Made by a program: the position numbers and the translations under genes
In this document: positions 2 to 50,010 of the stretch, piece after piece
Numbering within the stretch: the first letter of the stretch is position 1
Layout: every line of letters begins with the position of its first letter
DNA from: a virus
Lineage: Duplodnaviria; Caudoviricetes
IMG/VR virus record: IMGVR_UViG_3300033073_001332
Span: 128,001-192,000 of that record
DNA length: 64,000 nt
Direction: 5' to 3' (one strand)
Notes under the pieces: model-generated
The model's input: only the letters and a program-made list of their open reading frames with translations
The model's database searches: none
Told to the model about the DNA's origin: nothing

Positions 2-3000
2 GAAGACGAAAGAAAACCAAACTTCTTACAAAATCCGTGGGGACCTGAACAAGGTCAAAGTGTATTTGAAGTTGACCCGTATAGAAAATTAAAAAATTTA
101 GTAATACCACAAGGAAATTATTTAGATGAAAGTGATACTTTTGGTAGTGAGTTAGAGTTAGTTGGAGGAGTAAAAGAAACTGAATCGTATATTGGAAATA
201 CATATGCGACAGGTACAGGTGAATATGACCCAACAGTATTTAAATACCTTCAAACTAAAGGTTTACAACGACCTTATGCTAATTCAGATAACACATTTAT
301 ATTTTTACCATCTACATATACACCATATAGTATATTGTTAAGTGATAACCCAAGTGGTTCAGATGGGTCTTTGTCACAAGATTCTAGTTTAGCTGGTATT
401 GGTGCTAAACAATTAAATAAAGAATTCAAACATAGAGTTGCGTTAGAGTTAGTACAACAAACTTTGGGTCAAATAAATTTATTTAATTCAAATGTTAATC
501 CTGTAACTGGTGAGATTTCGGCAAAACCAAATACTGACCCATTCAATGCAATTGGATTGTTAACAGGTAATGTACCAATTATAGCTAGAAAATTTAATAT
601 TACGACACCTGATTTTTTATTTGGTCAAGGAATTAACTTTGCCGCTAAATTAGCAGGACTTTATTCCCCTTATTCTTATATACCGGGTGAGTATTTTGAT
701 TATCCTGACCCAATAGGTAATGGTCCTTATGAAAATCCATTATCATTAATTGGTGGTGCGATTGGTTCTTTATTTAGTGCATTACAACCTGCAAATCAAT
801 CATCATCGGAGTTATTAGTAGAATATACGTCAGTACCTACAAGAAAATTACTATATGACCAATTAAAATATAACTTATATAGACCAAACTATAAAATTGG
901 AAATAATCTTTTAGCCCCTCCAGGTTCTTTTTATATTGGTGAAAGAAAAAGTCATTTAACAGAATTAGTTTCACCAACACCTGAATTACCTTATGGAAGA
1001 GACGGTAAAACATCATCTATGGGTCCTGTTTTATCATACTCAAATATGGGTAAACTTTATGAAACGGACCAATTAAATGATACACAATTCGGTATAAATA
1101 GTAGAAACTTTTATAGTGCGGGAGCAACTAAAGATGGTGTAAAATGGATTGGTGGTAATGTTTTTGGAAGTTTCACATGGATAGGTAGTAAGAGCCCTGA
1201 CCAACCAAACTTCCCATCTGCCGGTAAATTACAAGGTAGAGGAGGTGAACAATTTGAAGATAATAGTGAGTTTACTTTTGGAAACCTTGTTGGGTATGAT
1301 AGCACCAAATCAACAAATACTGATTTTACACCTGGTTCATTATTAGATGTAACTCAAAAATTAATAGATGCGGGACAAAGAAGTTCTGTACCACTTGAAC
1401 ACGTTGGTAATGCTATAAACCAAGTATCTAAAGTTTTTAATGATGGATACCAAGAAATTACTAAAGGTTCGAGAGTAGTAAGATACACGACTAAAAATTC
1501 AGTAGGTGGTGGAGACATTAAGGGATTGGAATATTGTAGGATTTTTACTAAAGACAGACCATACTACACTTATGATGAATTACAAAAAACTGATGGTAAC
1601 ATTAGAAAGTTTACAAATTCAGTTTTAGATAATACTTGGAACGTAAACATTGCACCTGTTGATGGTTATAGTATAAAAGATGGTCGCGTAAAAAAATACA
1701 TGTTCTCTTTAGAAAACTTAGCTTGGAGAACGTCAAACAAAAAAGGGTATACTTATGATGATTTACCTGCGTGTGAAAGAGGACCAAACGGAGGTAGAAT
1801 TATGTGGTTTCCACCGTATGGTTTAAGTTTTGATGAAAGTATTAGTACAGGATGGCAAGATAATACGTTTTTAGGTAGAACCGAACCTATTTACACTTAT
1901 ACTAACACAACTAGAAAAGGTAACATATCTTTCAAGATTATTGTTGACCACCCTTCAATTTTAAATTTAATTGTAGATAGAGAGTTGGCCAACGTAGGTA
2001 ACAACGGAGAAATTACTCAAATAATAGATTCGTTTTTTGCGGGATGTACAAAATATGATTTGTGGGATTTAACAACAAAATTCCCGATGTTCACCCCTAA
2101 TGATGTATTTGAAACTCAAATATTAACAACAGAAGATATTGTTACCGTTGTTGAAGAACATAATTATAGTGTTATTGAAGAGGAAGTTGATATAGATAAT
2201 CAATATATTCCACCAACTCAAACACCACCATGTTTAGTTTACCACTATGATATTGGAGCTAACACCGATTTAAATTATACGTCTTGTACAGGTAACCAAG
2301 TTGTTTTAACATTATCAGCGGGAAGTCAAGGAGATATTTGTGTACAAAGAGGTACTACACCTCAAATTGTTACACCTGACCCAAGTAATAGTGTCACACC
2401 AACAGGTGATGCTTGTGAGAGTTCAACACCTGGACCTACACCATCGCCTTCACCGACACCGACACCGACACCACCACCAACGGAACCACCATTAAATACG
2501 ACTTTTCCTGAAATTGGATTCTATTTTGATAATAACTTCCCTGATGGAACAAATAATAATAATACAACCGTAACTCAAAATTTTGAACATTGGTATGAAT
2601 TATATGTGGGTTCTGAAAATGAATATGTTAATACGGGTAAAAGTGGTAAATATTCTGCGGCTCTTAATAAAATTTTAATTTATGGTGACCCTACGTATAA
2701 AGATTATACAAACTACGTTTTAAATGATTTACCAAATGATGCAAAAATTAAGTATTTAGATAGTTTTGTTGAAACTAGAAAAGAAAAAATATCAGAGTTT
2801 TTCTCGTACATAAAAAAGGAGTTTGGTGAGGCTAAAAAATTCATTGAAAAAATTGCACCTTTATTGGATGCGGGTGACACGATAACTTTTGATTTGATTG
2901 CAAGTGCATCGGCAGTTAATAATAATGCGTACAATGTTAATCTTTCTAAAAGAAGGTCAGATACGGTAAAGAAATGGATTTACGCACAAGTCTCCCCAAA

Positions 3001-22661: not shown

Positions 22662-24500
22662 ATGGCAAACAACAAAATTAACTATACGGACAGGGACTTT
22701 GAGGCGATAAGAACTGGTTTAATAAATTATACTAAACAATATTATCCCGAGTTAATTCAAAACTTCAACGACGCATCCGTGTTTTCAGTTTTGATGGATT
22801 TAAATGCTGCGGTTGCCGATAACTTACATTATCACATAGATAGAAGTATACAAGAAACGGTATTACAATATGCACAACAAAAGTCCTCAATTTATAATAT
22901 TGCAAGGACTTATGGATTAAAAATACCAGGATATAGACCTTCAGTTGCGGTTGTAGATATTTCAATTACGGTTCCACCTTTGGGTGACGCTGAAGATTAT
23001 CGTTACTTAGGAATTTTAAGAGCGGGGTCACAATTTAATGGTGGAGGAACTACTTTTGAAACCGTATACGACATTGACTTCTCAACTCAATATAACCAAG
23101 AAGGTGCTGTGAATAGAACAAAAGTTCCAACTTTTGATGCGAACAACAAGATTATTAATTATGTAATTACAAAAAGAGAAGTTGTAGTTAACGGTACAAC
23201 TAAAGTATTCAAAAGAGTAATTAACGCATCTGACGTTGTCCCATTCTTTAATTTCTTTTTACCTGAAAGAAATGTATTAGGTGTAAATGCGATTATCCAA
23301 CGAGATGGAACTAGTTATCCAAACGTTCCAAATTACGGAGAATTTACAACTGCTGCAGGTAAATGGTATGAAGTTGATGCTTTGGCTGAAGACACCGTTT
23401 TCATTGAAGACCCAACAAAACCTGTTGATAATGCAGGTATAAAAGTTGGTAAGTACATTAAAACGGAAAACAGATTTATTACTGAATACACACCAGAAGG
23501 TTTCTTAAAAATACAATTTGGGGGAGGAACAACAACACCTAATATACAACTAGCAAACTTTGCAAAACAAGGAATAAATTTAGATTTAGCAAATTACCAA
23601 AACAATATTGGATTAGGTTTAACGGTACAACCAAACACAACAATATTTGTTCAATATAGAACTGGTGGTGGTTTGGCGTCTAATGTTGGTGTTGGTGTAA
23701 TTAATCAAGTTGGTACTATTGATTTTGCAGTCAATGGTCCATCTGATTCAATTAACTCTAACGTATTAAATTCATTAGTAGTAAACAACGTTACTGCCGC
23801 TATCGGAGGTGCTAATCCACCATCGACTGAAGAAGTGAGAAACATGGTTGCGTTTAATTTTGCTGCACAAAAAAGAGCGGTTACGGTTAACGATTATAAG
23901 TCGTTGATTGATACGATGCCTGGAAAATTTGGAGCACCTGCAAAAGTGGCAATTACAGAAAATAATAACAAAATCACAATTCAAATCCTTTCTTACGACG
24001 GAAGTGGAAAATTAACTCAAACCGTTTCCAATAACTTAAAAACAAATTTAGCAACATACCTTTCTAAGTTCAGGATGATTAATGACTACATTAGTATTGA
24101 TGTTGCTAAAGTAGTTGACTTGGCTTTCGATATATATGTTGTTATTGAATCTAATGTTAATCAAGGACAAGTTATTACTGAAGTAATTAACCAAGTTTCA
24201 AATTACATGGCTCCTGAAAATAGAGAAATGGGTCAAAATGTTAACGTATCAGACGTAAGGAGATTGATACAAAATACCGCAGGTGTAATAAGTTTAAGTA
24301 AATTACAAGTATTCAATAAAGTTGGAGGTCAATATTCAACATCTGAAACATCACAAAGATATATTGACAAGACAACAAGAGAAATAGAATTAATTGACGA
24401 TAATATATTTGCAGAACCAACGCAAATATATCAAGTAAGGTTTGACAATAAAGACATTAGAGTGTTTGTAAAAAATCTTACATCAGTAGATTTCACATAA
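22662..24500 (+). CDS. Baseplate wedge protein, T4 gp6/baseplate J-like
   Basis: YTDRDFEAIR..QNFND, IQFGGG, YRTGGG..SN, AAIGGAN, QKRAVTVNDY. Confidence 0.85.
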   Translation: MANNKINYTDRDFEAIRTGLINYTKQYYPELIQNFNDASVFSVLMDLNAAVADNLHYHIDRSIQETVLQYAQQKSSIYNIARTYGLKIPGYRPSVAVVDISITVPPLGDAEDYRYLGILRAGSQFNGGGTTFETVYDIDFSTQYNQEGAVNRTKVPTFDANNKIINYVITKREVVVNGTTKVFKRVINASDVVPFFNFFLPERNVLGVNAIIQRDGTSYPNVPNYGEFTTAAGKWYEVDALAEDTVFIEDPTKPVDNAGIKVGKYIKTENRFITEYTPEGFLKIQFGGGTTTPNIQLANFAKQGINLDLANYQNNIGLGLTVQPNTTIFVQYRTGGGLASNVGVGVINQVGTIDFAVNGPSDSINSNVLNSLVVNNVTAAIGGANPPSTEEVRNMVAFNFAAQKRAVTVNDYKSLIDTMPGKFGAPAKVAITENNNKITIQILSYDGSGKLTQTVSNNLKTNLATYLSKFRMINDYISIDVAKVVDLAFDIYVVIESNVNQGQVITEVINQVSNYMAPENREMGQNVNVSDVRRLIQNTAGVISLSKLQVFNKVGGQYSTSETSQRYIDKTTREIELIDDNIFAEPTQIYQVRFDNKDIRVFVKNLTSVDFT

Positions 24501-33208: not shown

Positions 33209-34117
33209 ATGGCATTAGGAACATATGGTATTGTAAGACCTTCGGATGTATCACCAGCAGATGTTGATATCATATTACACTACACACCAAGTAGAGATGT
33301 TACGGATAATTTTCTTCTTAAAAAATTAAACTCACAAAGTGTTTTAACACCGTATTATCATAATTCAGATACAGGTGGTAATGCAGGTGTTGAAGTTTTA
33401 GGTGGATTATACAACTTAAAATTACCTGCTAGTGAATTTAATAAAAAAGGAATTTACACATTATACATTAAACCTGCCGAAATTAGAACAACAATTAACG
33501 ATTGTGGGGTGTTATCGGCATTACCAAATGTTAAAGGTATTATTATCAACTTGAATGATGTACCATCACAATTTAGAAATAAATTCACAAATCAAGGTCT
33601 TGTTGGATTTAGAGTGGAATACTTAAATTCTGATGGTAGTAAAATACCTAATTTTTATAGAATAGTAACATCATCATTCTTTTGCGAACCAGTAACAACT
33701 GAACAAATTAATTCATCACAAAAGACAATAAGATATCGTTATGTTGATGGTGGAAGTGATTTAGTATTTTGTACGTTATCACCTTCATCCTCACCTACTA
33801 ACAAACCAACCGCAACTCCATTCATTGGACAACCAAACCAAAAAATCATTGTAACAAATACTTTTTTCAATCCAATCACTATTGATATCCAAATGGCTGA
33901 CTACGATTTAGATACAATTGCAATCGCTCTTTATGGTAATCAAAGTAAGAGTATGGAGGACGGAATTTACACTCTTTACGATAGTAATAACAATATCTAT
34001 AAACAATATAACTTATTTGAGGTTAGAGATAACTTTAACGAGTTACTTTATGAAGTTAGACAAGACAGAGGTTCTAATATAGACTTCAGTAAAAACTTTA
34101 CAAATATTATTACTTAA
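33209..34117 (+). CDS. Hypothetical structural protein
   Basis: 302 aa; TATTTAT at 33192-33198. Confidence 0.55.
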   Translation: MALGTYGIVRPSDVSPADVDIILHYTPSRDVTDNFLLKKLNSQSVLTPYYHNSDTGGNAGVEVLGGLYNLKLPASEFNKKGIYTLYIKPAEIRTTINDCGVLSALPNVKGIIINLNDVPSQFRNKFTNQGLVGFRVEYLNSDGSKIPNFYRIVTSSFFCEPVTTEQINSSQKTIRYRYVDGGSDLVFCTLSPSSSPTNKPTATPFIGQPNQKIIVTNTFFNPITIDIQMADYDLDTIAIALYGNQSKSMEDGIYTLYDSNNNIYKQYNLFEVRDNFNELLYEVRQDRGSNIDFSKNFTNIIT

Positions 34118-37100
34118 TGGCGAATAAGATTTTCTTTCCACCTATTGGTACTAATACTTTCGCAGATAATCTTGTCGGAGTTCAGATTACTGATGCTGGT
34201 GGGTTAACACAAGGAAACTTCCAATTTACCACAGCAATATACGAAAAGTCAAATCGTAACTTTGATACTGGTGTATTTTCAAGTCCATATACTTTAGAAA
34301 ATATTAACGTAAATAGTATTGAAGAAGCAAGAAGAATTATTGAAAAAAACTTTAAAGTTTATCCTAATTATGATTTATCTGAGATAACAAGTTTTTCATT
34401 ATATGGTTCGTTAGCTAAAAGACTTTCGGCATCTGCAATTAAAATAATTAACAACTTCCCAGCGGCAATTGAAATAATTGCTTTACACCAATCAGGTCTC
34501 TTCACTGGAAGTACTGCATATAACATTACTTATAATTCAATAAACGATGAGACCACTTTTGATATGGACTCAGCGTTATTTAGAAATCCATTTGGTGTTG
34601 ATTTCTCGGTGAATGCTAAAAGAAATATTGAAGTACAACCATTTCCTGTTCATCCAATAAGAGCGTTAACGACTGAGTTTGAAAACTATTCTATGTTCTT
34701 TGAAGATTTGGACAAAGAATTTCAACTAACATTTTTTGAACCAACACAAAGCTTAAGTGGTGGAACCGTAAGTGTTTCAGTAAGAGGGGACATGTTTAGT
34801 GGTACGACTGCAACAACAAGAAGTTTAATTTTAAAACCAACAAAGAGTAAAACTTTAGAAATATTTGGAGATGCGTTTGATGAGGTTGAAAAGTTTTTAC
34901 TTAATCAAAATAGTTTACCAAAATACACTTCAGTATTCTCTTATCCTGAATACGATGGGACTACAGGTAAATACACATTATACAACAAGAGTATTACTTG
35001 GCCTATTAATAAGTTTTGGAATTTAGATATTACAAGTTCTGCGTTCAATCAATATTTGGATGATTTACAATTAGTTGCCGAAAGACTTGATGAATATAAA
35101 ACAAACTTAATCAGTAGATTTTTAATTACAGGAGCATTCAAAGAATTTGATACGGATGACCAAAAAATTGAAAAAGTATTACAAATCTATGGTAGAAGTT
35201 TTGATGAGGTTAAAAAATTCATAGACAGCTTAGCATACATGAATTCTGTTAACTACCAAGTAGGTAACGACATACCATCACAATTATTATTCAATTTAGC
35301 ACAAACTTTAGGTATTAACCCTAACATATCACCAATAACAAATGAAGGGTTCTTAGATTCAGTATTTAGTTCTAAATCACAACAAGTTTACGAGGGACAG
35401 GCAAATACTTTAACACCAACTGAACTTAATTATCAATACTATAGAAATTTGATATTAAATTCAGCTTACATGTACAAAACAAAAGGAACAAGACGTTCAC
35501 TTGAGTACGTGATGAGGTTTATTGGGGCACCTGAAGCGTTAATGGAATTTAACGAAATAATTTATGTTGCTGACACTAAAATAAACGTAGATAAATTTAC
35601 TGAACAATATGCAACCATTTCAGGTGGTACCAAATATGTAACGGCACCTATTTTGGATTCTGCAAATATCTTTAGTATTCAAGGTAAAACGTACACAGGT
35701 TATACAAGTAGTGGTAGAATTAAATTAGTTAACACGACGTTAGATGATTACGGTATTGATAGTGATGGATACCCTAAAAGTCCGGCACAGACAGATTCTA
35801 ATTTCTTTCAAAAAGGTGCAGGTTGGTTTGAACAAACACCGAAACATAGGTCAGCTCAAATTGCAGATAATGAAAACTCATCATTAAGTGGGTCAAATCC
35901 TTATCTTATAACAAAATTACAACCTTTTAATTTTGGTCAAGATTATATGAATAGTCTTAGACAATTCCCTGATATGAACGTCGGGTATACTCTAAGACGT
36001 GTTTCTGATAATCAAAAGTCTTGGGTTGTTAATGATGTTGGAACAAGAAAAAATAACGATAATTTCAATGGAGTTGATTATTCAGTATCAAATGACAAGT
36101 TAGTTATTAACTCCAAGAATATGGAACTCTACATGAATATGGGTCAAGGTATTACATATGATATATGGGATATGTCAGTAAAATACGATTACCCTATTCC
36201 TAATTCAGGTTTAACGGCACCTTATCCATATCCTGGAAATATTGATTGGACACACATCGACCCAAAACCAAAACAAAAAACTTTCTTTGAGTTTGCTCAA
36301 AGTTTCTATAACAACTTTATTAATGTAAGAAATAGACAAACAATAAGTGATGGTAAAACGGGAGGATACCCAACATTACAATCTGTTTTTTGGAATTACT
36401 TACAATCTGAACAGACGGTAGGGATTCCATCCAATAATTTCTCTTACCAAAAAATGATTGACTACACCTTAGGTTTAGGTGATTATTGGCAACGTTTATT
36501 AGAGCAAGTAGTTCCTGGTACTTCATTGTGGTTAACAGGACAAAAAATGGAAAACTCAATATTCCATAGACAAAAATATGTTTGGAGAAGACAAAGAGGT
36601 TGTCAGATTATTCCTGTGGCTTGTATTCCATGTAAGTATATGGGACAACCATTTGCGTACGATTGTATTGACCAAACATTACAATGTACTCTTGACGGAA
36701 CACCTGCTCAAATTCTACAATCACTATTGGCTAATTTATTATCACAAAGTGGATTAACTCAAAATATGTGTGATACAAATAGTATTGTATCTGAATGGTT
36801 TGTTGATTGTAGATTAGATAATCAAATACTTGTTCAAGAACAATTTTATACGGGTTATGGAATAAATGATTACCCATCCCAAACACAATTAATAAATGCA
36901 ATAGATACATACTTAGTTGGGTTATATAATTACGGATTAAATTATTACTTTGCTGGTAATACCTTGATTGTAAGTAACTCGTCTTGTTATGATAATTTCT
37001 CAACAAGTACTTTATATTTAAACATAGGTTTGAATATTGATATTAATTGTACTCCACCATTAGTTACTCCAACTCCTACGCCGACCCCAACTCCTACACC

Positions 37101-37473
37101 AACACCAACTCCAATCTATACTGAGGTTAGTATGTATTTTGGTGCACCTGTAGCGTCACCATCTACGGTAACATTTGTATACAGAATTAATGGTGGTGCA
37201 TGGATTAACATTAGTAATCAGGCGGTAGGAAACAAACCATCTACATTCCAAAACTACCAACCTTATGGTACTTCTACGGTTGTTGGTGATGTAATTGAAA
37301 TGGGAGTATTGAATTCTGGTGGATTTAATATAAGATTTGGTACGGGTAATAATAGTGGTACATACACAGGATACTGTGGAATTAGTTCATACTATACTTA
37401 TACTGTAGTAAGCGGTGTAAATAGTATTTACATAAACATCCAAGACACTGGTAGTGGATACGTAATATGTTAA
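34117..37473 (+). CDS. Baseplate wedge protein (tail protein I/gp7-like) with C-terminal (TP)8 linker
   Basis: LAQTLG and YMYKTKGTRRSLEYVMRFIG (KGT motif); Cys-rich C-terminal part. Confidence 0.65.
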   Translation: MANKIFFPPIGTNTFADNLVGVQITDAGGLTQGNFQFTTAIYEKSNRNFDTGVFSSPYTLENINVNSIEEARRIIEKNFKVYPNYDLSEITSFSLYGSLAKRLSASAIKIINNFPAAIEIIALHQSGLFTGSTAYNITYNSINDETTFDMDSALFRNPFGVDFSVNAKRNIEVQPFPVHPIRALTTEFENYSMFFEDLDKEFQLTFFEPTQSLSGGTVSVSVRGDMFSGTTATTRSLILKPTKSKTLEIFGDAFDEVEKFLLNQNSLPKYTSVFSYPEYDGTTGKYTLYNKSITWPINKFWNLDITSSAFNQYLDDLQLVAERLDEYKTNLISRFLITGAFKEFDTDDQKIEKVLQIYGRSFDEVKKFIDSLAYMNSVNYQVGNDIPSQLLFNLAQTLGINPNISPITNEGFLDSVFSSKSQQVYEGQANTLTPTELNYQYYRNLILNSAYMYKTKGTRRSLEYVMRFIGAPEALMEFNEIIYVADTKINVDKFTEQYATISGGTKYVTAPILDSANIFSIQGKTYTGYTSSGRIKLVNTTLDDYGIDSDGYPKSPAQTDSNFFQKGAGWFEQTPKHRSAQIADNENSSLSGSNPYLITKLQPFNFGQDYMNSLRQFPDMNVGYTLRRVSDNQKSWVVNDVGTRKNNDNFNGVDYSVSNDKLVINSKNMELYMNMGQGITYDIWDMSVKYDYPIPNSGLTAPYPYPGNIDWTHIDPKPKQKTFFEFAQSFYNNFINVRNRQTISDGKTGGYPTLQSVFWNYLQSEQTVGIPSNNFSYQKMIDYTLGLGDYWQRLLEQVVPGTSLWLTGQKMENSIFHRQKYVWRRQRGCQIIPVACIPCKYMGQPFAYDCIDQTLQCTLDGTPAQILQSLLANLLSQSGLTQNMCDTNSIVSEWFVDCRLDNQILVQEQFYTGYGINDYPSQTQLINAIDTYLVGLYNYGLNYYFAGNTLIVSNSSCYDNFSTSTLYLNIGLNIDINCTPPLVTPTPTPTPTPTPTPTPIYTEVSMYFGAPVASPSTVTFVYRINGGAWINISNQAVGNKPSTFQNYQPYGTSTVVGDVIEMGVLNSGGFNIRFGTGNNSGTYTGYCGISSYYTYTVVSGVNSIYINIQDTGSGYVIC
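37066..37113 (+). repeat. (Thr-Pro)8 coding repeat
   Basis: ACN-CCN tandem with mixed synonymous codons. Confidence 0.9.
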
Positions 37474-37481
37474 GATAAAAA

Positions 37482-40400
37482 ATGGCTTGTGTTTCAGGTT
37501 TAACAAATGGTGTTTATAGTTATATTGATTGTTGTGGTAATACTCAAACGGGTGTTTCCGTAGGTCAAAGTATTTGTTTAGATGAAACACTTACAGGGAC
37601 ATCTTTTGGTGTGTACATTGCAACAGGACAAACATGTACTGAGAATTGTAATCAAGGACCTTTAGATGTTAGTTTTTCAGTAACGGGAGTTTGTTCAGCA
37701 GCAACAGGTACCATTACATTTTACCCAACGGGTGGAATTTCACCTTATACTATCGATAATACGTTTGACCCATCAATAAGTGCTCAAACGGGAACTACAC
37801 AAATAACTTTCTCAGGTTTATCAGGAGGAACTTACGTCTTCAGATTGAATGATAGTCAAGGTATTCAAAACAATGAACTTTTTATAAACGTCACAATAAG
37901 TGGATGTTTTGATGCTAAAATATATAATACAAGTGGAACTACTTGTGGGTTAGATAATGGTTATTTTGAAGTAAGTGCAGCAACCTCAGGTTCACCATAT
38001 ACGATACTTCTTTACAAAGATGGTGTTTATGATTCTACGGTCGGGGCTGCAACTCTACCACAACCTTTTAGTAATTTAGCGAGTGGTATATATTACGCTA
38101 TTGTTGTTGATAATGCTTTAGCAACTGCATATACCGAAAACACCGTAATAAGTGCAACAACCGCAGTAGATTTTGGATTTTGGAAAGTTGATACTTCTAA
38201 TTGTGATTTGAATTGGGGTAAGTTAGCAGTAACCGGCATGACAGGTACAGGACCATACACTTACTTATGGGATAATGGACAAACAACTCAAATCATTACA
38301 GGTCTTACTCAAGGGACTTATAGTTGTACGGTAACAGATAGTTTAGGGTGTCAAACAACAAAAAGTGAAACTATTGGAGTAGCACAACCTTTAGGTTTAG
38401 CTTTTCAAACGGCAGTCCAACCAAGTTGTTTTCAAAATGATGGTTCATTAACTTTCACCGTAACAGGTGGAACACTACCGTTTTATTATTCAGCAACCAC
38501 AGGTTTAGTTGGTTATACGTTAGATAACGAATTTACAATCTCAGGGTTAAGTGCTGGAAATTACGATGTATTAGTAAGGGATGCGAGTTATTGTCAAACA
38601 ATAGTTAGTGGTAACTTATTAACACCAGGAAGTTTTGACCTTGTTGGTGTCTCTGTTACGAACCCGGTTTGTAATATAAATGGAGGGTCTATTCAAATTA
38701 ATATTGGAGGAGCTAACCAATCTTACAATTATACTTTATCGGGTCAAACTTCAGGGAGTGTTCAATCAAACGTAAGTCAAAGTCAAACATATACTTTTAG
38801 TAATTTAGTTACTGACAACTATTTGATAACAATTTCAGGTAGCGGAAGTAGTTGTGTTTACCGACAAGAAGTAAGTGTCACCTCAACACCTAAATTTAGT
38901 ATAAGTGCAACTACAACAGGTTCAACTTGTGGTCAATTAAATGGAACTGCGGTCATTCAAGTAAGTACGGGTTACACATCACCTTTAGATTATATCTTAA
39001 GTAATGGTGATACATTAATCGATTCACCATTATCTGCAATTACATATACAGACTTAGCCGCGGGTTCTTACACAATAAGTGTTACTGATGCTGATGGTTG
39101 TGTAGTGACAACAGGATTTACAATATCGACTGGTGGTAGTTTAGTTACGGGATTATCTACTACAAATTGTAATGGAACAAATAATGGAACGGCAACGGTA
39201 AACATTTATGATGGTTCACCACCATTCACATATAGTTGGTCAAATGGTCAAACAGGGTCAACTGCAACAAACTTAAGTGGAGGGACATATGATGTAACAA
39301 TAACAGACGCATCAGGATGTACCCAAACACAAAACTTTACAATAACATGTATTGGTAATTTGATTACATCTTATCAAACTTTCAATTTATGTACAAACAC
39401 CTTTACGACAACATCAAGTAATCAAAGAGGTTTAATTGAAATGTTGAATGAAGGTTATTTAGATATTACGTCGGGTTATACGGGATGTTCATTTAATTCG
39501 GCTGAACTTACTTGTGAAGTTGAAATAAATGGAACAGCCTATACACAAACATTCTATACAGCAACAACTTTAAATGATGTTCCACAAGATACTTTATGGC
39601 AAACAACAATTGAGGATATCTTATCGGGAATACCACAGATTCAAAGTTATGAGGTTAATCTATTAAATAATACGCTAACAATATATTCAAATTGTGATGG
39701 GGATGAAGACCCATTATCAGATGCTGATTTTAGTTTAAGTTTGAGTATTGTTTATGATGTTACATGTACAGGAACTTTATACCCTGCACCTCCAGCACCT
39801 CCTGTAACATACGAAGCATTATATACATCAACATCATTTGCTAATGTTAGTAGTAGTATTTGGCCGATATCTGGTGTAGAATCTGGAACTATATCATATT
39901 CAGGGGCACCTAATGAAATTCTCACAATGAGAGTGACATTACCAAATCTGATTAATTTTTCAGGAGGAACGTCAATAAACGGTATTAATTACAATGAGTA
40001 TAGTGCTAGTACATTTACCGCATCAACAAATAGTTCAGGGGTCGGGACTTTAACATTAATATCTAGTGCCACAACACACACCAATGTTTACGGACAAAAA
40101 ATTCATTATTTAGAAATATTAAATTCAAGTTCAGGTTCCACTATTGGACCACCGGGAAATGGTTCTTCATGGTTAAGATGGAGATATACTAACCCAATTT
40201 CTGGTAGTCAAAATTTAATTGGAGGTAATACCATTTCTGCAACAACAAGTGGTGATGCGTGTAACAACATAACTTATGATACATCATATAGAATAATTAA
40301 TACTGGTTTAACTATTAATACTGGCTCTACCGTATACTCAGGAACAACAGGCGCTATTTTAGTAAATGGAAACAATAAGTGGATTTCTGTTTATTATCCG

Positions 40401-40508
40401 GCTGCTCCAAGTGGTCTTGGGTATTATTCAGGATTCACGTATGGTACTAAATACGTAATTCAAGTTGATGCTTCAGGGGTGATAACAAATGTACAAATCT
40501 GCCCATAA
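37482..40508 (+). CDS. SprB-repeat adhesin-like virion protein
   Basis: Multiple units such as GTGPYTYLWDNGQTT..GLTQGTYSCTVTDSLGC and GSPPFTYSWSNG..NLSGGTYDVTITDASGC. Confidence 0.75.
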   Translation: MACVSGLTNGVYSYIDCCGNTQTGVSVGQSICLDETLTGTSFGVYIATGQTCTENCNQGPLDVSFSVTGVCSAATGTITFYPTGGISPYTIDNTFDPSISAQTGTTQITFSGLSGGTYVFRLNDSQGIQNNELFINVTISGCFDAKIYNTSGTTCGLDNGYFEVSAATSGSPYTILLYKDGVYDSTVGAATLPQPFSNLASGIYYAIVVDNALATAYTENTVISATTAVDFGFWKVDTSNCDLNWGKLAVTGMTGTGPYTYLWDNGQTTQIITGLTQGTYSCTVTDSLGCQTTKSETIGVAQPLGLAFQTAVQPSCFQNDGSLTFTVTGGTLPFYYSATTGLVGYTLDNEFTISGLSAGNYDVLVRDASYCQTIVSGNLLTPGSFDLVGVSVTNPVCNINGGSIQINIGGANQSYNYTLSGQTSGSVQSNVSQSQTYTFSNLVTDNYLITISGSGSSCVYRQEVSVTSTPKFSISATTTGSTCGQLNGTAVIQVSTGYTSPLDYILSNGDTLIDSPLSAITYTDLAAGSYTISVTDADGCVVTTGFTISTGGSLVTGLSTTNCNGTNNGTATVNIYDGSPPFTYSWSNGQTGSTATNLSGGTYDVTITDASGCTQTQNFTITCIGNLITSYQTFNLCTNTFTTTSSNQRGLIEMLNEGYLDITSGYTGCSFNSAELTCEVEINGTAYTQTFYTATTLNDVPQDTLWQTTIEDILSGIPQIQSYEVNLLNNTLTIYSNCDGDEDPLSDADFSLSLSIVYDVTCTGTLYPAPPAPPVTYEALYTSTSFANVSSSIWPISGVESGTISYSGAPNEILTMRVTLPNLINFSGGTSINGINYNEYSASTFTASTNSSGVGTLTLISSATTHTNVYGQKIHYLEILNSSSGSTIGPPGNGSSWLRWRYTNPISGSQNLIGGNTISATTSGDACNNITYDTSYRIINTGLTINTGSTVYSGTTGAILVNGNNKWISVYYPAAPSGLGYYSGFTYGTKYVIQVDASGVITNVQICP

Positions 40509-41080: not shown

Positions 41081-41107
41081 TTATTTCTACAATATTTATA
41101 AAGTGAT

Positions 41108-44569: not shown

Positions 44570-44616
44570 TCATTTATTTACGTAACAAATTTCATATCTT
44601 CTAAAAAAAGAAGAGA

Positions 44617-45816
44617 ATGAAAATATTTGTTCAAATTGCATCTTATCGTGACCCCGAACTTTTACCAACCATCAGAGATTGTATCCATAAAGCAAAGTAT
44701 CCTGAAAATTTAACATTTGGAATTTGTTGGCAACATGATGAAACCGAATCGATGGAAGAATTTGCAAATGACGAAAGATTTAAAATCTTAGACTATCATT
44801 GGAGTTGGAGTAAAGGTCTTTGTTGGGCTCGTTCTGAAATTCAAAAACTATGGAATGGTGAAGAGTATACGATGCAATTAGATTCACATCACAGATTTTT
44901 ACAAGATTGGGATGTTGAATTAATTGAAATGATGAAACTTACAGGTTCAGAAAAACCAATCATCACAACATATGCCGGAATGTACCGACCAAGTGATAAT
45001 CAATTATTGAATATTGAACCATACAAAATGGTGGCATCTAATTTCACACCAGGAGGAACAATTCTTTTTAGACCACACGTTATTGAAAATTGGCAAACTT
45101 TAGATAAACCAATCCCTGCAAGATTTGTAAGCGGACACTTCTTTTTTACTATTGGAAAACATTGTGAGGAATACAAGTATGACCCCAATTTATATTTTGC
45201 CGGTGATGAAATCAGTTTATCCATTAGGTCATTTACTTTAGGTTATGATTTATTTCACCCTTATAAGACGGTTATTTGGCATGAATACACAAGAGAAGGT
45301 AGGACAAAACATTGGACAGACTTCAACGATGAAAACAAAAACAAAGGTGTTGTTGAAAAGCCTTGGTGGATTATGGATAATGAATCCAAAAGAAGATTAA
45401 GGCACATGTTACAAGAGGAAGATAATAATATTGACCTTGAAGAATACGGATTAGGTAATGTAAGAACACATAGTGATTATGAACTTTATGCTGGTATTAA
45501 TTTTAAAGAAAGAGTTTTACATGAAAACACTATAAAAGGAATAGACCCACCTGTTAATGATAATAGTGATTGGTATTTAAAAACTAAAAACACATATAAT
45601 TTAGAACTTGATATTCCTTTTACTGAAAACTTTAAATTCATTTATATTGGTATTGAAGACGATAATGGAAATGTGATACATCGACAAGATTTAACGTCAT
45701 ACACCCCCAAGATTAAAGTTAAAATTGAAAGTTTTTCTAAACCACATAAGTGGGTATATTGGGTTAACAACATAAACGATGAATGGGTAAATAGACAAGA
45801 TATTTTATTTTTATAA
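44617..45816 (+). CDS. GT60-like (Gnt1/Gnt2-type, Pfam GlcNAc) glycosyltransferase
   Basis: IFVQIASYRDPEL..TI, GLCWAR, YTMQLDSHHRF..WD (DSH motif), YDPNLYFAGDEISLSIRSFTLGYDLFHP, WHEY. Confidence 0.8.
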   Translation: MKIFVQIASYRDPELLPTIRDCIHKAKYPENLTFGICWQHDETESMEEFANDERFKILDYHWSWSKGLCWARSEIQKLWNGEEYTMQLDSHHRFLQDWDVELIEMMKLTGSEKPIITTYAGMYRPSDNQLLNIEPYKMVASNFTPGGTILFRPHVIENWQTLDKPIPARFVSGHFFFTIGKHCEEYKYDPNLYFAGDEISLSIRSFTLGYDLFHPYKTVIWHEYTREGRTKHWTDFNDENKNKGVVEKPWWIMDNESKRRLRHMLQEEDNNIDLEEYGLGNVRTHSDYELYAGINFKERVLHENTIKGIDPPVNDNSDWYLKTKNTYNLELDIPFTENFKFIYIGIEDDNGNVIHRQDLTSYTPKIKVKIESFSKPHKWVYWVNNINDEWVNRQDILFL

Positions 45817-45873
45817 ACCAAAGGGTAATAAAATAGATTTTTGATTATTTATATAATAAAGTTTCACACTTAA

Positions 45874-47472
45874 ATGGCTAATGTAATTTTTAGTAGTTGT
45901 TGTTATAACCTCGTATATAGTGCCACGAGTTTTTTTGGTACAAGTACGGTAGGTACGGTTCACAGCGTTAGCGGTGATACAAACATGCCTGATGGTTGTT
46001 ATACAATTATGTCATCAGGTACGGGTACCTTAATTACTTTTGATGGTTCTTCTACGGTCGCTTCAGGGTGTACAAGTTTACAATGCATTGATTGTTGCTC
46101 AAGTACTTTATGTATTAGTGTACCAACTACATTATATAGTGGATATAGTGGAAACTACACGGTTCAAGGAGGACATAACTCATACCCATATTGGACAGGA
46201 GGAACATCAAGTATAGGATACTTACATTATAACGGAACTTATTGGTGTTTAAGTAATTCTTTAAGTGGTTCTTGTATATTCTTTGGGTCAAACCCAACAT
46301 TTTCAGTATGTCCTGATTTAGATGAAACGGTAATGACAACAGGTGCTTGTGTTCCAACACCAACACCATATGACCCGTGTTCTGTTTTGGATTTTGATGT
46401 TTTGTTGGAATGCAATATCCCAACTCCAACACCTACACCGACCCCAACTCCTACACCTACACCAACCCCAACGCCAACTCCAACAGCAAATATTTGTAGT
46501 GCATTTACGGCTAATATAACATATCAAACCGCAACACCTACACCAACTCCAACACCGACACCCACACCAACCCCAACACCGACGGTTACACCTTCGGCAG
46601 ATACGGTTACGTTTGTGGTTGATAATGGGAACTTTGTCTGTGCTACGGTTAAAGAATTGGTTGATTGTTATACGGGAACTAAATATTATGTTTCAGGACC
46701 ATTGTTATTAACAGGTTCTACTGCAACAACTATCACAACAACAGGAACAACAATCTATGGTGTGATAAATAATGATATAAGATGTGCAACATATACACAA
46801 AATGTTAATGGAAGTGCAAATGCATCAATTCAATATATAATTTCAGCATATACTGGTTATTGTTCGGTTTCTTGTGTTACTCCAACACCTACTCCAACTC
46901 CTACTCCAACACCAACTCCAACTCCTACACCAACACCAACTCCGACTCCAACTTACGCAGCTGGAACCGTGTTTGTATTTACATCTTGTACTTCTAATAG
47001 TATGATAACACAAACATCATACCCGCCAACTAACCTTACTATTGGTAATGTATTAAAAACTTTATCAGGTGATTGTTATAGTTATGTTGGAAACTATGTG
47101 GGATATGTTGCTCCGTCAGGATATGTGGTTGCAAATATAAATCAATTTACTGCAACTACAGCCACGACATACACTGATTGCGTTGATTGTTTAACCGTGA
47201 CTGCAGCCACTACATCGTATAACACATGGAAAGGAAGTTTTGGATTTGCCTTGAATTGTCCTGTTTGTCAAATAACTGACTTTGGTAGAAAAAATACTTT
47301 CTACACATCTAATCTAATATCTGAAATTACTACAGGTGTCTACATCTTTAGTGATTCAGGATTAACTAAACCGGTAACTGAAGATTACCTACAATACGGA
47401 AACTTTATTTATAGAGTCGATGTAAGTGGTAAATTAACACAATACTGTACCGTAAACGGAAATTGTAAATAA
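45874..47472 (+). CDS. Cys-rich, mucin-like Pro-Thr repeat virion protein
   Basis: Three long PT tracts separating Cys-rich beta domains; TATTTATA at 45846. Confidence 0.7.
46420..46953 (+). repeat. Three Pro-Thr coding repeat tracts (46420-46485, ~46534-46593, 46879-46953)
   Basis: About (PT)11, (TP)8 and (TP)12, with varied synonymous codons. Confidence 0.9.
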
Positions 47473-48410
47473 TGGCTATAAATGTAACCGTAAGTTCAAT
47501 AGTATCAGGGACATCACCATATAATGTATGGGTATGTGATAGTTGTGACATTGGTGCGACTTGCCAATACATAGACTCATTTTCAACAAGTGCATACACA
47601 TTTACTCTACCAACAATTTATGAAAGTTACTCAACATATTATGTTAAAGTAATTGATTCAAATGGTTGTAGTTATTGTATGTCTCCTGATTTAATTGGTT
47701 GTAATATTTTTGTTGGTTATTGGGATGGAAACAATTATTACAAATATAATGTAATGAGTGATATTGAAGAAGGACCATTATCATTAGTAATTACACCAAC
47801 CGTAGACAATAGTCCGATGGCGAATACCGACGATAAGATATGGTTCTTATCGTCAACAGGTGCCACTGAATTAGATATTACTATTGACCCATTTACTAAC
47901 ACATATAGTAGAGAAATAGCAATCAATTTAGATGTGAACAAAGAAATATTTGCTATTGATAATAATAACTTATTAGTACTGGCTACAAACACAGGGACAT
48001 CAACAACTCATGTTTATAGTGCTAACATTACTGGTACAACGGCATCTACAACAAATCTTATTCAGATTGTAGGTTCCCTTTCAGGTGAACCCTTTATTAG
48101 GGATATGAAACTATCAACCGAAGATAAATTAATTGTTATTGGTACAAAAACGGGAACAACTTATTTACAACAATATGATTACGTTTCAGGAGGTACTTTA
48201 GAAGTTGAAATAAACTTATCAGGAATAACTAACGTAGGTTCATTGGTAGAAACGAACGACCAATTTTATATTTTAAACAATTCAAATGAAGTTTATCAGA
48301 TAAATTTAACGGCACCATATTTAATAACGTTTGTAAAAACATCAACAACACCAATAGGTTTTGGAAGGTCTTCACAAAAATATGGATGTATAACACAAAA
48401 ATTCACATAA
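47472..48410 (+). CDS. Structural protein: N-terminal adapter module plus beta-propeller-like domain
   Basis: SGTSPYNVWVCD..YVKVIDSNGC is shared with the 40508 and 40796 genes; repeating beta-strand C-terminal region. Confidence 0.55.
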   Translation: MAINVTVSSIVSGTSPYNVWVCDSCDIGATCQYIDSFSTSAYTFTLPTIYESYSTYYVKVIDSNGCSYCMSPDLIGCNIFVGYWDGNNYYKYNVMSDIEEGPLSLVITPTVDNSPMANTDDKIWFLSSTGATELDITIDPFTNTYSREIAINLDVNKEIFAIDNNNLLVLATNTGTSTTHVYSANITGTTASTTNLIQIVGSLSGEPFIRDMKLSTEDKLIVIGTKTGTTYLQQYDYVSGGTLEVEINLSGITNVGSLVETNDQFYILNNSNEVYQINLTAPYLITFVKTSTTPIGFGRSSQKYGCITQKFT

Positions 48411-48411
48411 A

Positions 48412-50010
48412 ATGGGTCAATTAAGTGGTAATAGTTGTAATATAATAACCCTTTTTCCTTTGGGATTAGAATGTAATAGTGTTAATTCGTCAACACCACA
48501 AACAACAAATGGTTTGATTTCGTTATATATTACAGGTGGAACACCACCTTATAATGTTACATGGAATAATGGTCAACAAGGAACATTATTAACAAATCTT
48601 GGACCTGGTGATTATACAGCAACCGTAGTTGATTTTTATGGTGATTTTACAGGAACAACAACATGTACGGTTGGGTATGATAGTTTCTATTTAGAAGAGT
48701 TTGAAGATTGTTCTAATTCTGGAAGTTACATATATTATTTAGCTGACTTATATAACCCATTCAGTGCGTCTTCTGTTTACAGATTAACAACACAGACAGG
48801 TTGTTGGACAAGTAGTGGAACTACATTACACACAGGTCAAACATATTATGATTATTTTGCTGTGAGTTCGGCAGGACCTTACACAGGTTGTACAGAGTGT
48901 TTACCACCGGTTACACCTACACCAATCATACCAAGTGGATTATGTTTAACACAAACCGTTAACTCAACACCTACATTAATTAATTTCTACTCAGCAGGGA
49001 CACTTAATGGTATGATGAGTTGGACTAGTGTAACACCAAGTTATAAAATATATTATAGTTCAGGAACAACAAAATGGATGTTGAGTGGATGGACAAATGG
49101 TTCAGTATTCAAACAATCACCAACATCACCACCAACAGGAAGTTGGACCGTAACAGGACCAAGTGCGTTTACAACAACAATTACGGTATTATCTGGTAAT
49201 TGTTCTTCAGCACCATTGAAAGTTAAAGTAAATTCTACAAACCCAATATGTGCAAATCAAACAAATGGGTCTATGATTTTAACAGGAAGTGGAGGAGTCC
49301 CTACCTACACCTACTCATTGAATGGCGTTAATTACCAATCATCAAACATCTTCTCAAGTTTAGGTGTCGGTACATATACGGTATATATTAAAGATTCGGT
49401 TGGTAACGTATATTCAACAACCCAAACTTTAGTACCACAACAAAGTGTACAAAATTATGTGGTTAGTTTGAATCTTAACGAACAAACTCCACAATCATTT
49501 GGTAACGCAACAAGTAAAACAACAAACTGGTCAATATCGGTTTCACCGGCGTTACCTACAGGAACAACGGTAAACATGACACTCACATTCAACGTTAATT
49601 ATACCGCAAATACAAATACATCAACGATTGTTCCTACAATAACAAATTCAATAACTTCCACAACTTCTCCAAATGCGGTTGTAACACAAACAAGTGTAAG
49701 TACAACGACAGGTACAAGTACGGCAAGACCAAGTTGTACTAATGGATTCACTAGAACAAGTGCATATACTGAAACATATAGTGTACAATTAACAAATAAT
49801 GGTTCGGCGAATGGTACGATTGTTCAATATGTGAACACTCCTTGTGTTGCTACAGGTTGTGTATTAAATGGATTTATAGTTGATAGTGTTTCTATACAAA
49901 ACATTTCAATTACACCATCACTTTGTAGAAGTATTAATAAAAATGTTACACCACAGAAAACACAACTTAATAAAACAGGTAATTTATGTCCTGCGGCGAG
50001 TGGAGCGTAA
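48412..50010 (+). CDS. SprB-repeat-containing virion protein
   Basis: TGGTPPYNVTWNNG..NLGPGDYTATVVD and SGGVPTYTYSLNG..LGVGTYTVYIKDSVG. Confidence 0.7.
   Translation: MGQLSGNSCNIITLFPLGLECNSVNSSTPQTTNGLISLYITGGTPPYNVTWNNGQQGTLLTNLGPGDYTATVVDFYGDFTGTTTCTVGYDSFYLEEFEDCSNSGSYIYYLADLYNPFSASSVYRLTTQTGCWTSSGTTLHTGQTYYDYFAVSSAGPYTGCTECLPPVTPTPIIPSGLCLTQTVNSTPTLINFYSAGTLNGMMSWTSVTPSYKIYYSSGTTKWMLSGWTNGSVFKQSPTSPPTGSWTVTGPSAFTTTITVLSGNCSSAPLKVKVNSTNPICANQTNGSMILTGSGGVPTYTYSLNGVNYQSSNIFSSLGVGTYTVYIKDSVGNVYSTTQTLVPQQSVQNYVVSLNLNEQTPQSFGNATSKTTNWSISVSPALPTGTTVNMTLTFNVNYTANTNTSTIVPTITNSITSTTSPNAVVTQTSVSTTTGTSTARPSCTNGFTRTSAYTETYSVQLTNNGSANGTIVQYVNTPCVATGCVLNGFIVDSVSIQNISITPSLCRSINKNVTPQKTQLNKTGNLCPAASGA

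What the first reader, a model, noticed from the sequence alone, without database searches (positions are those of the whole stretch)
44617..47472. Candidate phage-encoded mucin-type O-glycosylation system for virion proteins (GT60-like enzyme plus Pro-Thr acceptor tracts)
Seen: the only recognisable enzyme in a ~30-kb structural cluster (22.2-52.2 kb) is a GT60-like glycosyltransferase (ASYRD, DSH and F-x-G-D-E motifs). It sits between a Ser/Thr-rich fibre and a protein with three long PT tracts. Further PT tracts occur in baseplate proteins (~2426-2491, 37066-37113). The tracts use mixed synonymous codons, which suggests selection on the peptide rather than recent slippage. Established: GT60 enzymes in protists add alpha-GlcNAc to Thr of mucin-like domains (Dictyostelium Gnt2, trypanosome OGNTs) or to hydroxyproline of Skp1 (Gnt1). 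Inference: the phage glycosylates its own tail appendages, giving stiff, protease-resistant stalks, or glycans that glycan-foraging Bacteroidota would bind.
Basis: partly seen in the sequence, partly recalled or inferred. Interest (0 to 1): 0.85.

Follow-up and report, generated by a model that had tools for sequence, protein, structure and literature searches.

The report
Phage mucin-type sugar enzyme beside Pro-Thr linkers
An uncultured freshwater jumbo phage encodes, inside its tail-fibre genes, a soluble relative of the enzymes that start mucin-type sugar chains, and in many phages and some bacteria such enzymes sit next to proteins with long Pro-Thr tracts, so it probably sugar-coats those linkers, though no sugar has been measured.

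Summary
ORF 44617-45816 is an intact GT60/PF11397 glycosyltransferase (E 2.7e-67) with an invariant DxH motif. Its confident model is closest to animal polypeptide GalNAc-transferases (Z 19.5-23.4, against 16.8 or less for other GT-A enzymes). It lies between a collagen-like fibre and a 532-aa protein with three (PT)n tracts.

New evidence here:
- PT-tract genes are enriched among the enzyme's nearest neighbours across 16 dereplicated viral contexts (p 0.0016-0.015).
- In three of four related 220-310 kb genomes that have perfect (PT)5 tracts, every such tract lies within about 8 kb of the enzyme gene.
- Of 120 viral loci chosen only for a (PT)8 tract, 9 carry a GT60-like gene, against 0 of 118 collagen-like control loci.
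- The tracts are 92% conserved where the rest of the protein is 51% conserved.
- In relatives the same slot holds different glycosyltransferase sets.

No prolyl hydroxylase gene was found, so Thr is the likelier acceptor than hydroxyproline. The genome has at least 10 further glycosyltransferase domains elsewhere.

The modification itself is untested, and some relatives separate the enzyme and the tracts by 8-60 kb. This scan has already reached the same reading on at least 10 other genomes. Phage virion glycosylation is known, so this is a new variant.

The parts
44617..45816 (+). GT60-like (PF11397) soluble GT-A glycosyltransferase, 399 aa: catalytic domain about 1-300 plus a C-terminal beta-sandwich at 325-397
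   Evidence: Pfam E 2.7e-67. PHROG 24687 E 1.6e-103. AF2 pLDDT 95. The top ~50 Foldseek PDB hits listed are all ppGalNAc-Ts. VIA Z 19.5-23.4 against 16.8 or less for other GT-A enzymes. DxH (D89, H91) and H222 are invariant.
45874..47472 (+). 532-aa Cys-rich 'beads-on-a-string' protein: four small beta domains joined by three (PT)n linkers. Proposed main acceptor.
   Evidence: Tracts found. In 36 orthologues the tracts keep position and length, with 92% identity against 51% for the rest of the protein. AF2 gives beta domains with disordered linkers. No Pfam, PHROG or PDB fold match.
46420..46485 (+). PT tract 1, 22 residues
46534..46581 (+). PT tract 2, 16 residues
46879..46950 (+). PT tract 3, 24 residues
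41108..44569 (+). Collagen-like (Gly-Thr/Ser-Ser/Asn triplet) tail fibre, 1153 aa, directly upstream. Alternative acceptor.
   Evidence: PF01391 E 7e-20 and tail-fibre PHROGs.
34117..37473 (+). 1118-aa tail-module protein with one (PT)8 tract at 37066-37113
   Evidence: The tract is present in only some orthologues.
2426..2491 (+). Imperfect P/T/S-rich tract in the large ORF that ends at 5302
22662..24500 (+). Baseplate wedge subunit, marking the start of the tail-appendage module (context)
   Evidence: phrog_219 E 9e-22.
37482..40508 (+). SprB-repeat protein, 1008 aa, of the appendage module (context). Orthologues in relatives carry PT tracts.
   Evidence: PF13573.
48412..50010 (+). SprB-repeat protein, 532 aa (context)
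   Evidence: PF13573 E 6.5e-10.

Best explanation
The 399-aa protein is a soluble, metal-dependent, retaining GT-A enzyme of family GT60. It is made late, together with the tail-appendage proteins. In the host cytoplasm it would transfer a HexNAc from a UDP-sugar onto threonines of the (PT)n linkers, before the proteins are assembled. The sugar is most likely alpha-GlcNAc, by family precedent. The acceptors would be the neighbouring 532-aa protein, which has 31 Thr in its three tracts, and probably the other PT-bearing tail proteins. The first sugar may then be extended by the phage's many other glycosyltransferases. The result would be mucin-like, extended, glycan-coated spacers on the virion surface.

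Shown: family membership, fold, motifs, gene order, conservation of the tracts, and the statistical enzyme-tract association.

Inferred: the acceptor, the sugar, the timing and the benefit.
For: Enzyme class.
- PF11397 at E 2.7e-67.
- Invariant DxH and a later His. GT60 and GT27 share DxH and polypeptide Ser/Thr O-glycosylation (PMC7185993).
- The model (pLDDT 95) matches ppGalNAc-Ts first.
- A T. cruzi pp-alpha-GlcNAc-transferase activity puts alpha-GlcNAc on Thr of a Thr/Pro peptide with Mn2+, and the GT60 gene TcOGNT-2 encodes such an activity (PMC3769586).

Placement. In about 55 syntenic phage loci the enzyme sits directly before the PT protein, or with one to four further genes (HtrL_YibB, DUF3431 and unassigned ORFs) in between.

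Independent contexts. Unrelated PT-tract proteins sit next to the enzyme in L029, L030, L031, L055, L064, L069, L072 and in the complete genomes G001 and G003.

Statistics.
- 5 of 59 near genes carry PT tracts against 3 of 205 far genes (Fisher p 0.015).
- 5 of 16 contexts are positive against 5.7% expected (p 0.0016).
- In three of the four genomes that have perfect (PT)5 tracts, all of them lie within about 8 kb of the enzyme gene.

Reverse test. 9 of 120 (PT)8-selected viral loci hold a GT60-like gene. Seven of these lie outside this phage family, and most share only 24-38% identity with each other (two pairs reach 49% and 84%). None of 118 collagen-repeat loci holds one (p 0.0018 and 0.007).

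Bacteria. Of 80 loci, 21 have a PT tract within 10 kb, and 16 of those are within 2.5 kb.

Peptide-level selection. Tracts are 92% identical against 51% for the rest of the protein, their length is fixed, and their codons are scrambled.

Precedent. Phage XacN1 carries a 37% homologue, and two PAS-stained virion bands were reported (PMC5852040).
Against: - No biochemical or mass-spectrometry data exist for any phage or prokaryotic GT60 member.
- The association is not universal. In G009, G010 and G011 the enzyme and the (PT)4 tracts are 8-60 kb apart. G008 (88% complete) has one short tract but no enzyme.
- About half of the non-syntenic viral loci and 59 of 80 bacterial loci have no PT tract within 10 kb.
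- L113 keeps the enzyme but has lost tract 3. L097, L098 and L106 keep PT tracts where a GT29-like gene replaces GT60.
- (PT)n is a common rigid linker, and its conservation could reflect spacer geometry alone.
- That the 532-aa protein is in the virion rests on synteny only.
Confidence: 0.6

Rival explanations
1. The enzyme glycosylates other virion proteins, either the collagen-like Gly-Thr-Ser fibre directly upstream or Ser/Thr-Gly-x-Thr motifs on outer proteins. It lies near PT tracts only because both sit in fibre modules.
For: The collagen-like fibre ends 47 bp before the enzyme gene. In about 20 relatives a collagen-like ORF is the gene directly upstream. Earlier notes of this scan report an enriched S/T-G-x-T motif on virion proteins of this genome (not tested here).
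Against: None of 118 collagen-repeat viral loci carries a GT60-like gene, against 9 of 120 PT loci. The upstream gene varies between relatives while the PT protein is constant. Unrelated contexts pair the enzyme with PT proteins that lack Gly-X-Y repeats.
Confidence: 0.15
2. The enzyme acts on a non-protein acceptor, such as host envelope glycans or lipids (superinfection exclusion, receptor masking) or phage DNA.
For: Jumbo-phage glycosyltransferase clusters have been read as surface-polysaccharide modifiers (PMC7824862). Phage glycosyltransferases that hypermodify DNA are known (cited in PMC12619734). In XacN1 the homologue lies next to a carbamoyltransferase, 5-8 kb from the DNA polymerase gene.
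Against: The fold is nearest polypeptide transferases, not DNA or lipid-linked enzymes. The model shows no membrane segment. No thymidylate-synthase-type hydroxymethylase was found in 219.5 kb. The gene is embedded in, and co-oriented with, the tail genes, and the PT association is specific.
Confidence: 0.1
3. The PT tracts are plain rigid spacers and are not glycosylated. The enzyme modifies a host or phage protein unrelated to them, and the neighbourhood signal reflects shared mobility of fibre-module cassettes.
For: (PT)n linkers are widespread without any dedicated enzyme. Tracts persist where GT60 is missing from the slot (L097, L098, L106) and in G008 and G012, where no GT60 was found.
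Against: The association is significant in both directions and recurs with glycosyltransferases only 24-38% identical, and in bacteria. The slot beside the PT protein always holds some glycosyltransferase, even when GT60 is absent.
Confidence: 0.1

Closest known systems
Protist polypeptide alpha-GlcNAc-transferases, CAZy GT60 (Dictyostelium DdGnt2, T. cruzi TcOGNT-2)
   Same: Same Pfam family (PF11397), GT-A fold and DxH motif. Their acceptors are Thr in Thr/Pro-rich mucin-like domains. They lack the ricin lectin domain of GT27 (PMC8724618, PMC3769586, PMC7185993).
   Different: The protist enzymes are Golgi type II membrane proteins. The phage enzyme is soluble, would act in a bacterial cytoplasm, and carries an extra C-terminal beta-sandwich. 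Its activity and sugar are untested.
Gnt1 of Dictyostelium and Toxoplasma (cytoplasmic Skp1 hydroxyproline GlcNAc-transferase, GT60)
   Same: A soluble cytoplasmic GT60 enzyme.
   Different: Gnt1 needs a prolyl 4-hydroxylase and one specific Hyp on Skp1. No P4H domain was found in the contig, and the candidate acceptors are repetitive tracts.
Animal polypeptide GalNAc-transferases (GT27), initiators of mucin-type O-glycosylation
   Same: They are the best structural match (Z 19.5-23.4, about 270 residues aligned, rmsd about 3.2 A). They share the DxH motif. From my own knowledge, they prefer Pro-flanked Thr.
   Different: Only 12-17% identity. The phage enzyme has no ricin-type lectin domain, is not in the secretory pathway, and its donor is unknown.
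Mycobacteriophage virion glycosylation (Freeman et al. 2023, cited in PMC12619734)
   Same: Phage-encoded glycosyltransferases are proposed to decorate the phage's own virion proteins.
   Different: Different glycosyltransferase families. The acceptors there are C-termini of capsid and tail-tube subunits. Here they would be internal PT linkers of fibre-module proteins. That system is experimentally shown; this one is not.
Xanthomonas jumbo phage XacN1 ORF334
   Same: A 37% identical full-length homologue. Two PAS-positive virion proteins were reported, and the authors proposed that phage glycosyltransferases make them (PMC5852040). XacN1 has (PT)4+ matches inside the coordinates of five genes, among them the 3313-aa ORF325, which follows the baseplate wedge genes about 9 kb from ORF334.
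   Different: The gene is not adjacent to a PT protein. It is flanked by a carbamoyltransferase and a GT9-like gene. The glycoproteins were not identified.
Chlorovirus PBCV-1 capsid glycosylation
   Same: Virus-encoded cytoplasmic glycosylation of structural proteins.
   Different: A eukaryotic virus with atypical N-linked glycans and other glycosyltransferase families.

Membership tests
CAZy GT60 / Pfam PF11397 | Sequence match above the curated threshold | tested here: met
   228 bits against a cut-off of 21, E 2.7e-67.
CAZy GT60 / Pfam PF11397 | GT-A fold with DxH in place of DxD | tested here: met
   D89-S90-H91 with D and H invariant in 52 sequences. GT-A model at pLDDT 95. The motif rule comes from PMC7185993.
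CAZy GT60 / Pfam PF11397 | C-terminal His as third metal ligand | tested here: inconclusive
   H222 is invariant, but its role was not checked by superposition on a metal-bound structure.
CAZy GT60 / Pfam PF11397 | Sister relation to GT27 polypeptide transferases | tested here: met
   The top ~50 Foldseek hits listed and 29 VIA entries at Z 19.5-23.4 are ppGalNAc-Ts. The next family is at Z 16.8.
CAZy GT60 / Pfam PF11397 | Retaining transfer of alpha-GlcNAc from UDP-GlcNAc to a polypeptide Thr or Hyp | not testable with these tools
   Needs an enzyme assay or mass spectrometry.
Golgi pp-alpha-GlcNAcT subgroup (DdGnt2, TcOGNT-2) | Type II membrane anchor and lumenal action | tested here: not met
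   The protein starts directly with strand beta-1 (MKIFVQIASYRD), and the model shows no hydrophobic segment.
Gnt1 / Skp1 hydroxyproline pathway | Partner prolyl 4-hydroxylase | tested here: not met
   PF13640 and PF03171 were not found in the 219.5-kb contig. The contig is only 75% complete.
Mucin-type O-glycosylation system | Dense Pro/Thr tandem acceptor domains | tested here: met
   Three (PT)8-12 tracts in the adjacent protein, with further tracts nearby.
Mucin-type O-glycosylation system | Elongating glycosyltransferases | tested here: inconclusive
   None is adjacent in the window. At least 10 glycosyltransferase domains lie elsewhere in the genome. GT8-like, GT25, GT2, GT11, HtrL, Glf and FkbM genes lie adjacent in relatives. 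No link to this enzyme's product has been shown.
Phage virion glycosylation (mycobacteriophage type) | Phage glycosyltransferase within or next to structural genes | tested here: met
Phage virion glycosylation (mycobacteriophage type) | Glycan demonstrated on virion proteins | not testable with these tools
   Uncultured phage. The only data are PAS staining in the distant relative XacN1 (PMC5852040).
Phage DNA glycosylation | Hydroxymethyl-pyrimidine-forming enzyme in the genome | tested here: not met
   PF00303 is absent from 219.5 kb. TET/JBP-type oxygenases were not searched.

The most novel reading that the evidence does not exclude
Prokaryotes and their phages have a widespread cytoplasmic, mucin-type O-glycosylation pathway started by soluble GT60 enzymes on (PT)n linkers. 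In freshwater jumbo phages, the slot beside the PT-linker tail protein would be a swap site for glycan cassettes. Relatives carry GT60 alone, GT60 plus a 265-aa gene, a divergent GT60 plus HtrL, a five-gene set, or a GT29-like gene. Tail appendages would then carry exchangeable 'glycotypes' that shape host recognition or evasion of host defences.
Probability: 0.3. Interest if true: 0.8.

Novelty: new variant of a known kind. Interest (0 to 1): 0.6.

Why it matters
Protein glycosylation of phage particles has been shown experimentally only recently, and in few systems. If GT60 enzymes really load sugars onto Pro-Thr linkers, three things follow.
- A common sequence feature of phage tail proteins and of some bacterial surface proteins would be a glycosylation site rather than a passive spacer.
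- Mucin-type initiation, so far characterised only in eukaryotes although GT60 genes are catalogued in prokaryotes, would have a prokaryotic cytoplasmic counterpart.
- The variable cassette next to the acceptor gene would point to glycan diversification of phage appendages.

The idea is directly testable with a two-gene co-expression, and in the cultured phage XacN1.

Tried and rejected
- PDB by sequence: no relative of the enzyme.
- NCBIfam: nothing for the enzyme, and only low-complexity noise for the PT protein.
- The PT protein has no Pfam or PHROG hit. The Atlas returns only unnamed viral clusters. No fold match was found (Foldseek E 1.8 or worse, VIA Z 4.2 or less). Its virion role therefore stays inferred.
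- PHROGs on PT proteins of other loci were mostly 'unknown function'.
- No prolyl hydroxylase and no thymidylate-synthase-type enzyme in the contig.
- Literature: 'GT60' plus 'phage' gave nothing relevant, and 'PF11397' gave one algal paper.
- Co-loss test (does loss of GT60 go with loss of PT tracts?) was ambiguous. L097, L098 and L106 lack GT60 in the slot and show somewhat degenerate tracts, but their contigs are about 10% complete. L113 keeps GT60 and lost tract 3.
- The megablast search of the region against cultured phages found only a trivial repeat match.
- The promoter and terminator scan showed nothing above shuffled expectation.
- Rejected: recent slippage as the origin of the tracts (scrambled codons).
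- Rejected: the collagen-like fibre as the general partner of GT60 (0 of 118 loci).
Full report
**Setting.** The window is bases 128001-192000 of a 219.5-kb IMG/VR viral contig, estimated 75% complete. It is a low-GC (about 33%) jumbo phage. ORFs at 14-22 kb are replication and nucleotide genes. A baseplate wedge subunit starts the appendage module at 22662. From there to 52.2 kb all long ORFs are on the + strand. They include SprB-repeat proteins, a collagen-like tail fibre and several unassignable large proteins.

**Observation.** ORF 44617-45816 (399 aa) matches Pfam PF11397 'GlcNAc' at E 2.7e-67 and phrog_24687 at E 1.6e-103. The quoted motifs are present. D89, H91, G196, E198 and H222 are invariant in an alignment with 51 representatives at 35-49% identity. 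ORF 45874-47472 carries (PT)n tracts at residues 183-204, 221-236 and 336-359. ORF 34117-37473 has one at 984-999. The stretch near 2426-2491 is a looser P/T/S tract. Codons within the tracts are mixed, with third-position identity at a 6-nt lag of 0.29-0.36. The upstream 'Ser/Thr-rich fibre' is a collagen-like Gly-X-Y fibre (PF01391, E 7e-20).

**The enzyme.** No solved structure is related by sequence. An AlphaFold2 model from the 52-sequence alignment is confident (pLDDT 95, pTM 0.87). It shows a GT-A domain at about 1-300 and a C-terminal beta-sandwich at 325-397. It has no N-terminal anchor.
- The ~50 best Foldseek hits listed from the PDB are all polypeptide GalNAc-transferases (E down to 5e-12).
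- VIA-align gives these enzymes Z 19.5-23.4 (about 270 residues, rmsd about 3.2 A). Other GT-A enzymes reach 16.8 at most.
- This fits the published sister relation of GT60 and GT27, their shared DxH motif and their shared polypeptide Ser/Thr O-glycosylation. It also fits the statement that GT60 occurs in prokaryotes and protists (PMC7185993; PMC8724618).
- A T. cruzi pp-alpha-GlcNAc-transferase activity adds alpha-GlcNAc to Thr of KPPTTTTTTTTKPP with Mn2+, and the GT60 gene TcOGNT-2 encodes such an activity (PMC3769586).
- In BFVD the nearest viral models are already labelled 'Glycosyltransferase, GlcNAc' in uncultured Caudovirales, Megaviridae and Pandoravirus.
- The family is large: 4374 cluster representatives at E 0.001 or better. 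Full-length homologues at 37-67% identity occur in Verrucomicrobia, Acidobacteria, Alphaproteobacteria and Saprospiraceae.
- Among cultured phages, only Xanthomonas and Stenotrophomonas jumbo phages have it, at 35-38% identity.

**Association with PT tracts, forward direction.** Of the 74 viral loci found with the enzyme as query, 40 share the window's gene order. These are joined by further syntenic loci found with the conserved 735-aa downstream protein. In the shared order the enzyme directly precedes the PT protein, or one to four further genes (HtrL_YibB, DUF3431 and unassigned ORFs) lie in between.
- In loci with unrelated neighbours, different PT-tract proteins again lie next to the enzyme: L029, L030, L031, L055, L064, L069 and L072, and close by in L051 and L068.
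- In a distant sublineage with complete 309-321 kb genomes, the PT-protein orthologue has no enzyme beside it. The genome still carries the enzyme elsewhere, again directly downstream of other PT-tract proteins.
- I used one representative per neighbourhood cluster, chosen blind to PT content. This happened to pick the atypical L011 for the big cluster. PT genes were 5 of 59 among the four nearest neighbours and 3 of 205 among the rest (Fisher p 0.015). Five of 16 contexts were positive against 5.7% expected (p 0.0016).
- Genome-wide, perfect (PT)5 tracts lie only within about 8 kb of the enzyme gene in G000, G003 and G006. G007's single tract lies in the 22-kb locus that also holds the enzyme gene. 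G001 has none. There were no hits in reversed-pattern controls.

**Association, reverse direction with a control.** I scanned viral contigs for a (PT)8 DNA pattern and got 120 loci (1.14 Mb). Nine contain a GT60-like gene. Seven are outside this phage family; most share only 24-38% identity with each other and with the window enzyme, though two pairs are closer (L294/L342 84%, L323/L328 49%). A matched scan for collagen-like (GGN7)x12 repeats gave 118 loci (1.04 Mb) with none. Fisher p is 0.0018, or 0.007 without the two related loci. This argues that the partner is the PT tract, not fibres in general, and it weakens the collagen-fibre rival. In 80 bacterial loci, 21 have a PT tract within 10 kb, and 16 of those are within 2.5 kb.

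**The acceptor candidate.** In 36 orthologues at 52-89% identity, the three tracts keep their positions and lengths (21-24, 15-16 and about 24 residues). They are 92% identical to the window protein, while the rest of the protein is 51% identical. Together with the scrambled codons, this shows selection on the peptide. The model shows four small beta domains with disordered linkers. No family or fold match was found. The protein has 28 Cys, most of them invariant.

**A variable glyco-slot.** At the same position relatives carry one of the following:
- the enzyme alone (this window);
- the enzyme plus a 265-aa gene with no Pfam hit;
- a 38-47% divergent GT60 plus an HtrL_YibB-family gene;
- GT60 plus DUF3431, two unassigned genes and HtrL;
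- no GT60, but a GT29-like gene on the opposite strand.

Elsewhere GT60 heads cassettes with GT8-like, GT25, GT2, GT11, FkbM methyltransferase and UDP-galactopyranose mutase genes.

**Rest of the genome.** Outside the window there is a minus-strand glycan island at genome 90.7-100.4 kb. It holds an aminotransferase, a cytidylyltransferase, an MptE/Maf-like protein, STELLO, a carbamoyltransferase, GT11, GT10, GT2 and GT2_5+GT4. There is a GT2/GT1 pair near 80 kb and a 1527-aa multi-glycosyltransferase protein at 40-45 kb. No prolyl hydroxylase (PF13640, PF03171) and no thymidylate-synthase-type enzyme was found.

**Counter-evidence.**
- In G009, G010 and G011 the enzyme and the (PT)4 tracts are 8-60 kb apart. 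G008 (88% complete) has one short tract and no enzyme. G012 (42% complete) has six tracts and no enzyme found.
- L113 has the enzyme but lost tract 3.
- Most bacterial homologues have no nearby PT tract.
- XacN1's homologue is flanked by a carbamoyltransferase and a GT9-like gene. A 3313-aa protein whose coordinates contain a (PT)4+ match follows the baseplate genes about 9 kb away.

**Prior knowledge.** Virion glycosylation by phage enzymes is established for mycobacteriophages (Freeman 2023, cited in PMC12619734). The XacN1 authors saw two PAS-stained virion proteins and suggested that the phage glycosyltransferases make them (PMC5852040). I found no paper linking GT60 to PT tracts in phages. 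Earlier AI notes of this scan reached the same reading on at least 10 other genomes, and noted the glycan island and a TibC-like enzyme in this genome. I treated them as leads and re-tested the bacterial association and the island myself.

**Verdict.** The enzyme class and a specific, recurrent, two-way association with PT tracts are shown. Transfer to Thr of the linkers, the sugar and the benefit remain inferred (confidence 0.6). It is a new variant of a known kind.

Noticed in passing
L092:2807-4839, L121:2262-6443, L097:5222-5806, L004:10001-11991 (relatives of window 44617-45816): The slot before the PT protein holds different glycosyltransferase sets in related phages: GT60 alone, GT60 plus a 265-aa gene, a divergent GT60 plus HtrL_YibB, a five-gene set with DUF3431, or a GT29-like gene without GT60. 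This looks like cassette swapping.
   Followed up: partly
window 45874-47472: The PT protein has 28 cysteines, more than 20 of them invariant across 36 orthologues. That is unusual for a protein made in a bacterial cytoplasm and suggests disulfides or metal sites.
   Followed up: no
window 40508-40795, 40796-41080, 47472-47750: Two tandem ORFs of about 95 aa and the N-terminus of the 312-aa ORF share a small module (...SGTSPY..VCD...), each just before a fibre-like gene. In relatives the 312-aa ORF is split into a 93-99-aa ORF plus a fibre gene. An earlier scan note reads such pairs as adaptor-fibre docking units.
   Followed up: no
G000:C1:90694-100442 (L085), 79648-81526 (L086), 40177-44760 (L087), outside the window: A large glycan gene island, a GT2/GT1 pair and a 1527-aa multi-glycosyltransferase protein (GT25, GT1, GT9 and FkbM domains). 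The phage encodes at least 10 glycosyltransferase domains beyond GT60.
   Followed up: partly
L064:7057-9900, L067:4702-7661: In other phages GT60 is followed by an FkbM methyltransferase and a UDP-galactopyranose mutase. That implies galactofuranose in the glycan, as on T. cruzi alpha-GlcNAc-Thr mucins (PMC3769586).
   Followed up: no
L219:7385-9650 (MAG, Saprospiraceae): In a Bacteroidota bacterial genome, two ORFs with 13 PT tracts end about 350 bp upstream of a GT60 homologue. This is a bacterial counterpart of the phage arrangement.
   Followed up: no
AP018399.1 (XacN1) 212808, 274816, 275986, 124964, 131178, 132266: The cultured phage with PAS-positive virion proteins has (PT)4+ pattern matches inside the coordinates of ORF325 (3313 aa, after the baseplate wedge genes), ORF384, ORF232, ORF236 and ORF237; the reading frame was not checked. 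These are candidate identities for its glycoproteins.
   Followed up: partly
window 41173-41859 minus strand and 41250-41531 plus strand: The 84-117-aa ORFs overlapping the collagen-like repeat region are alternative-frame readings of the repeat (VPLVPDVP..., LQVLVVLEQTE...). They are not genes.
   Followed up: no
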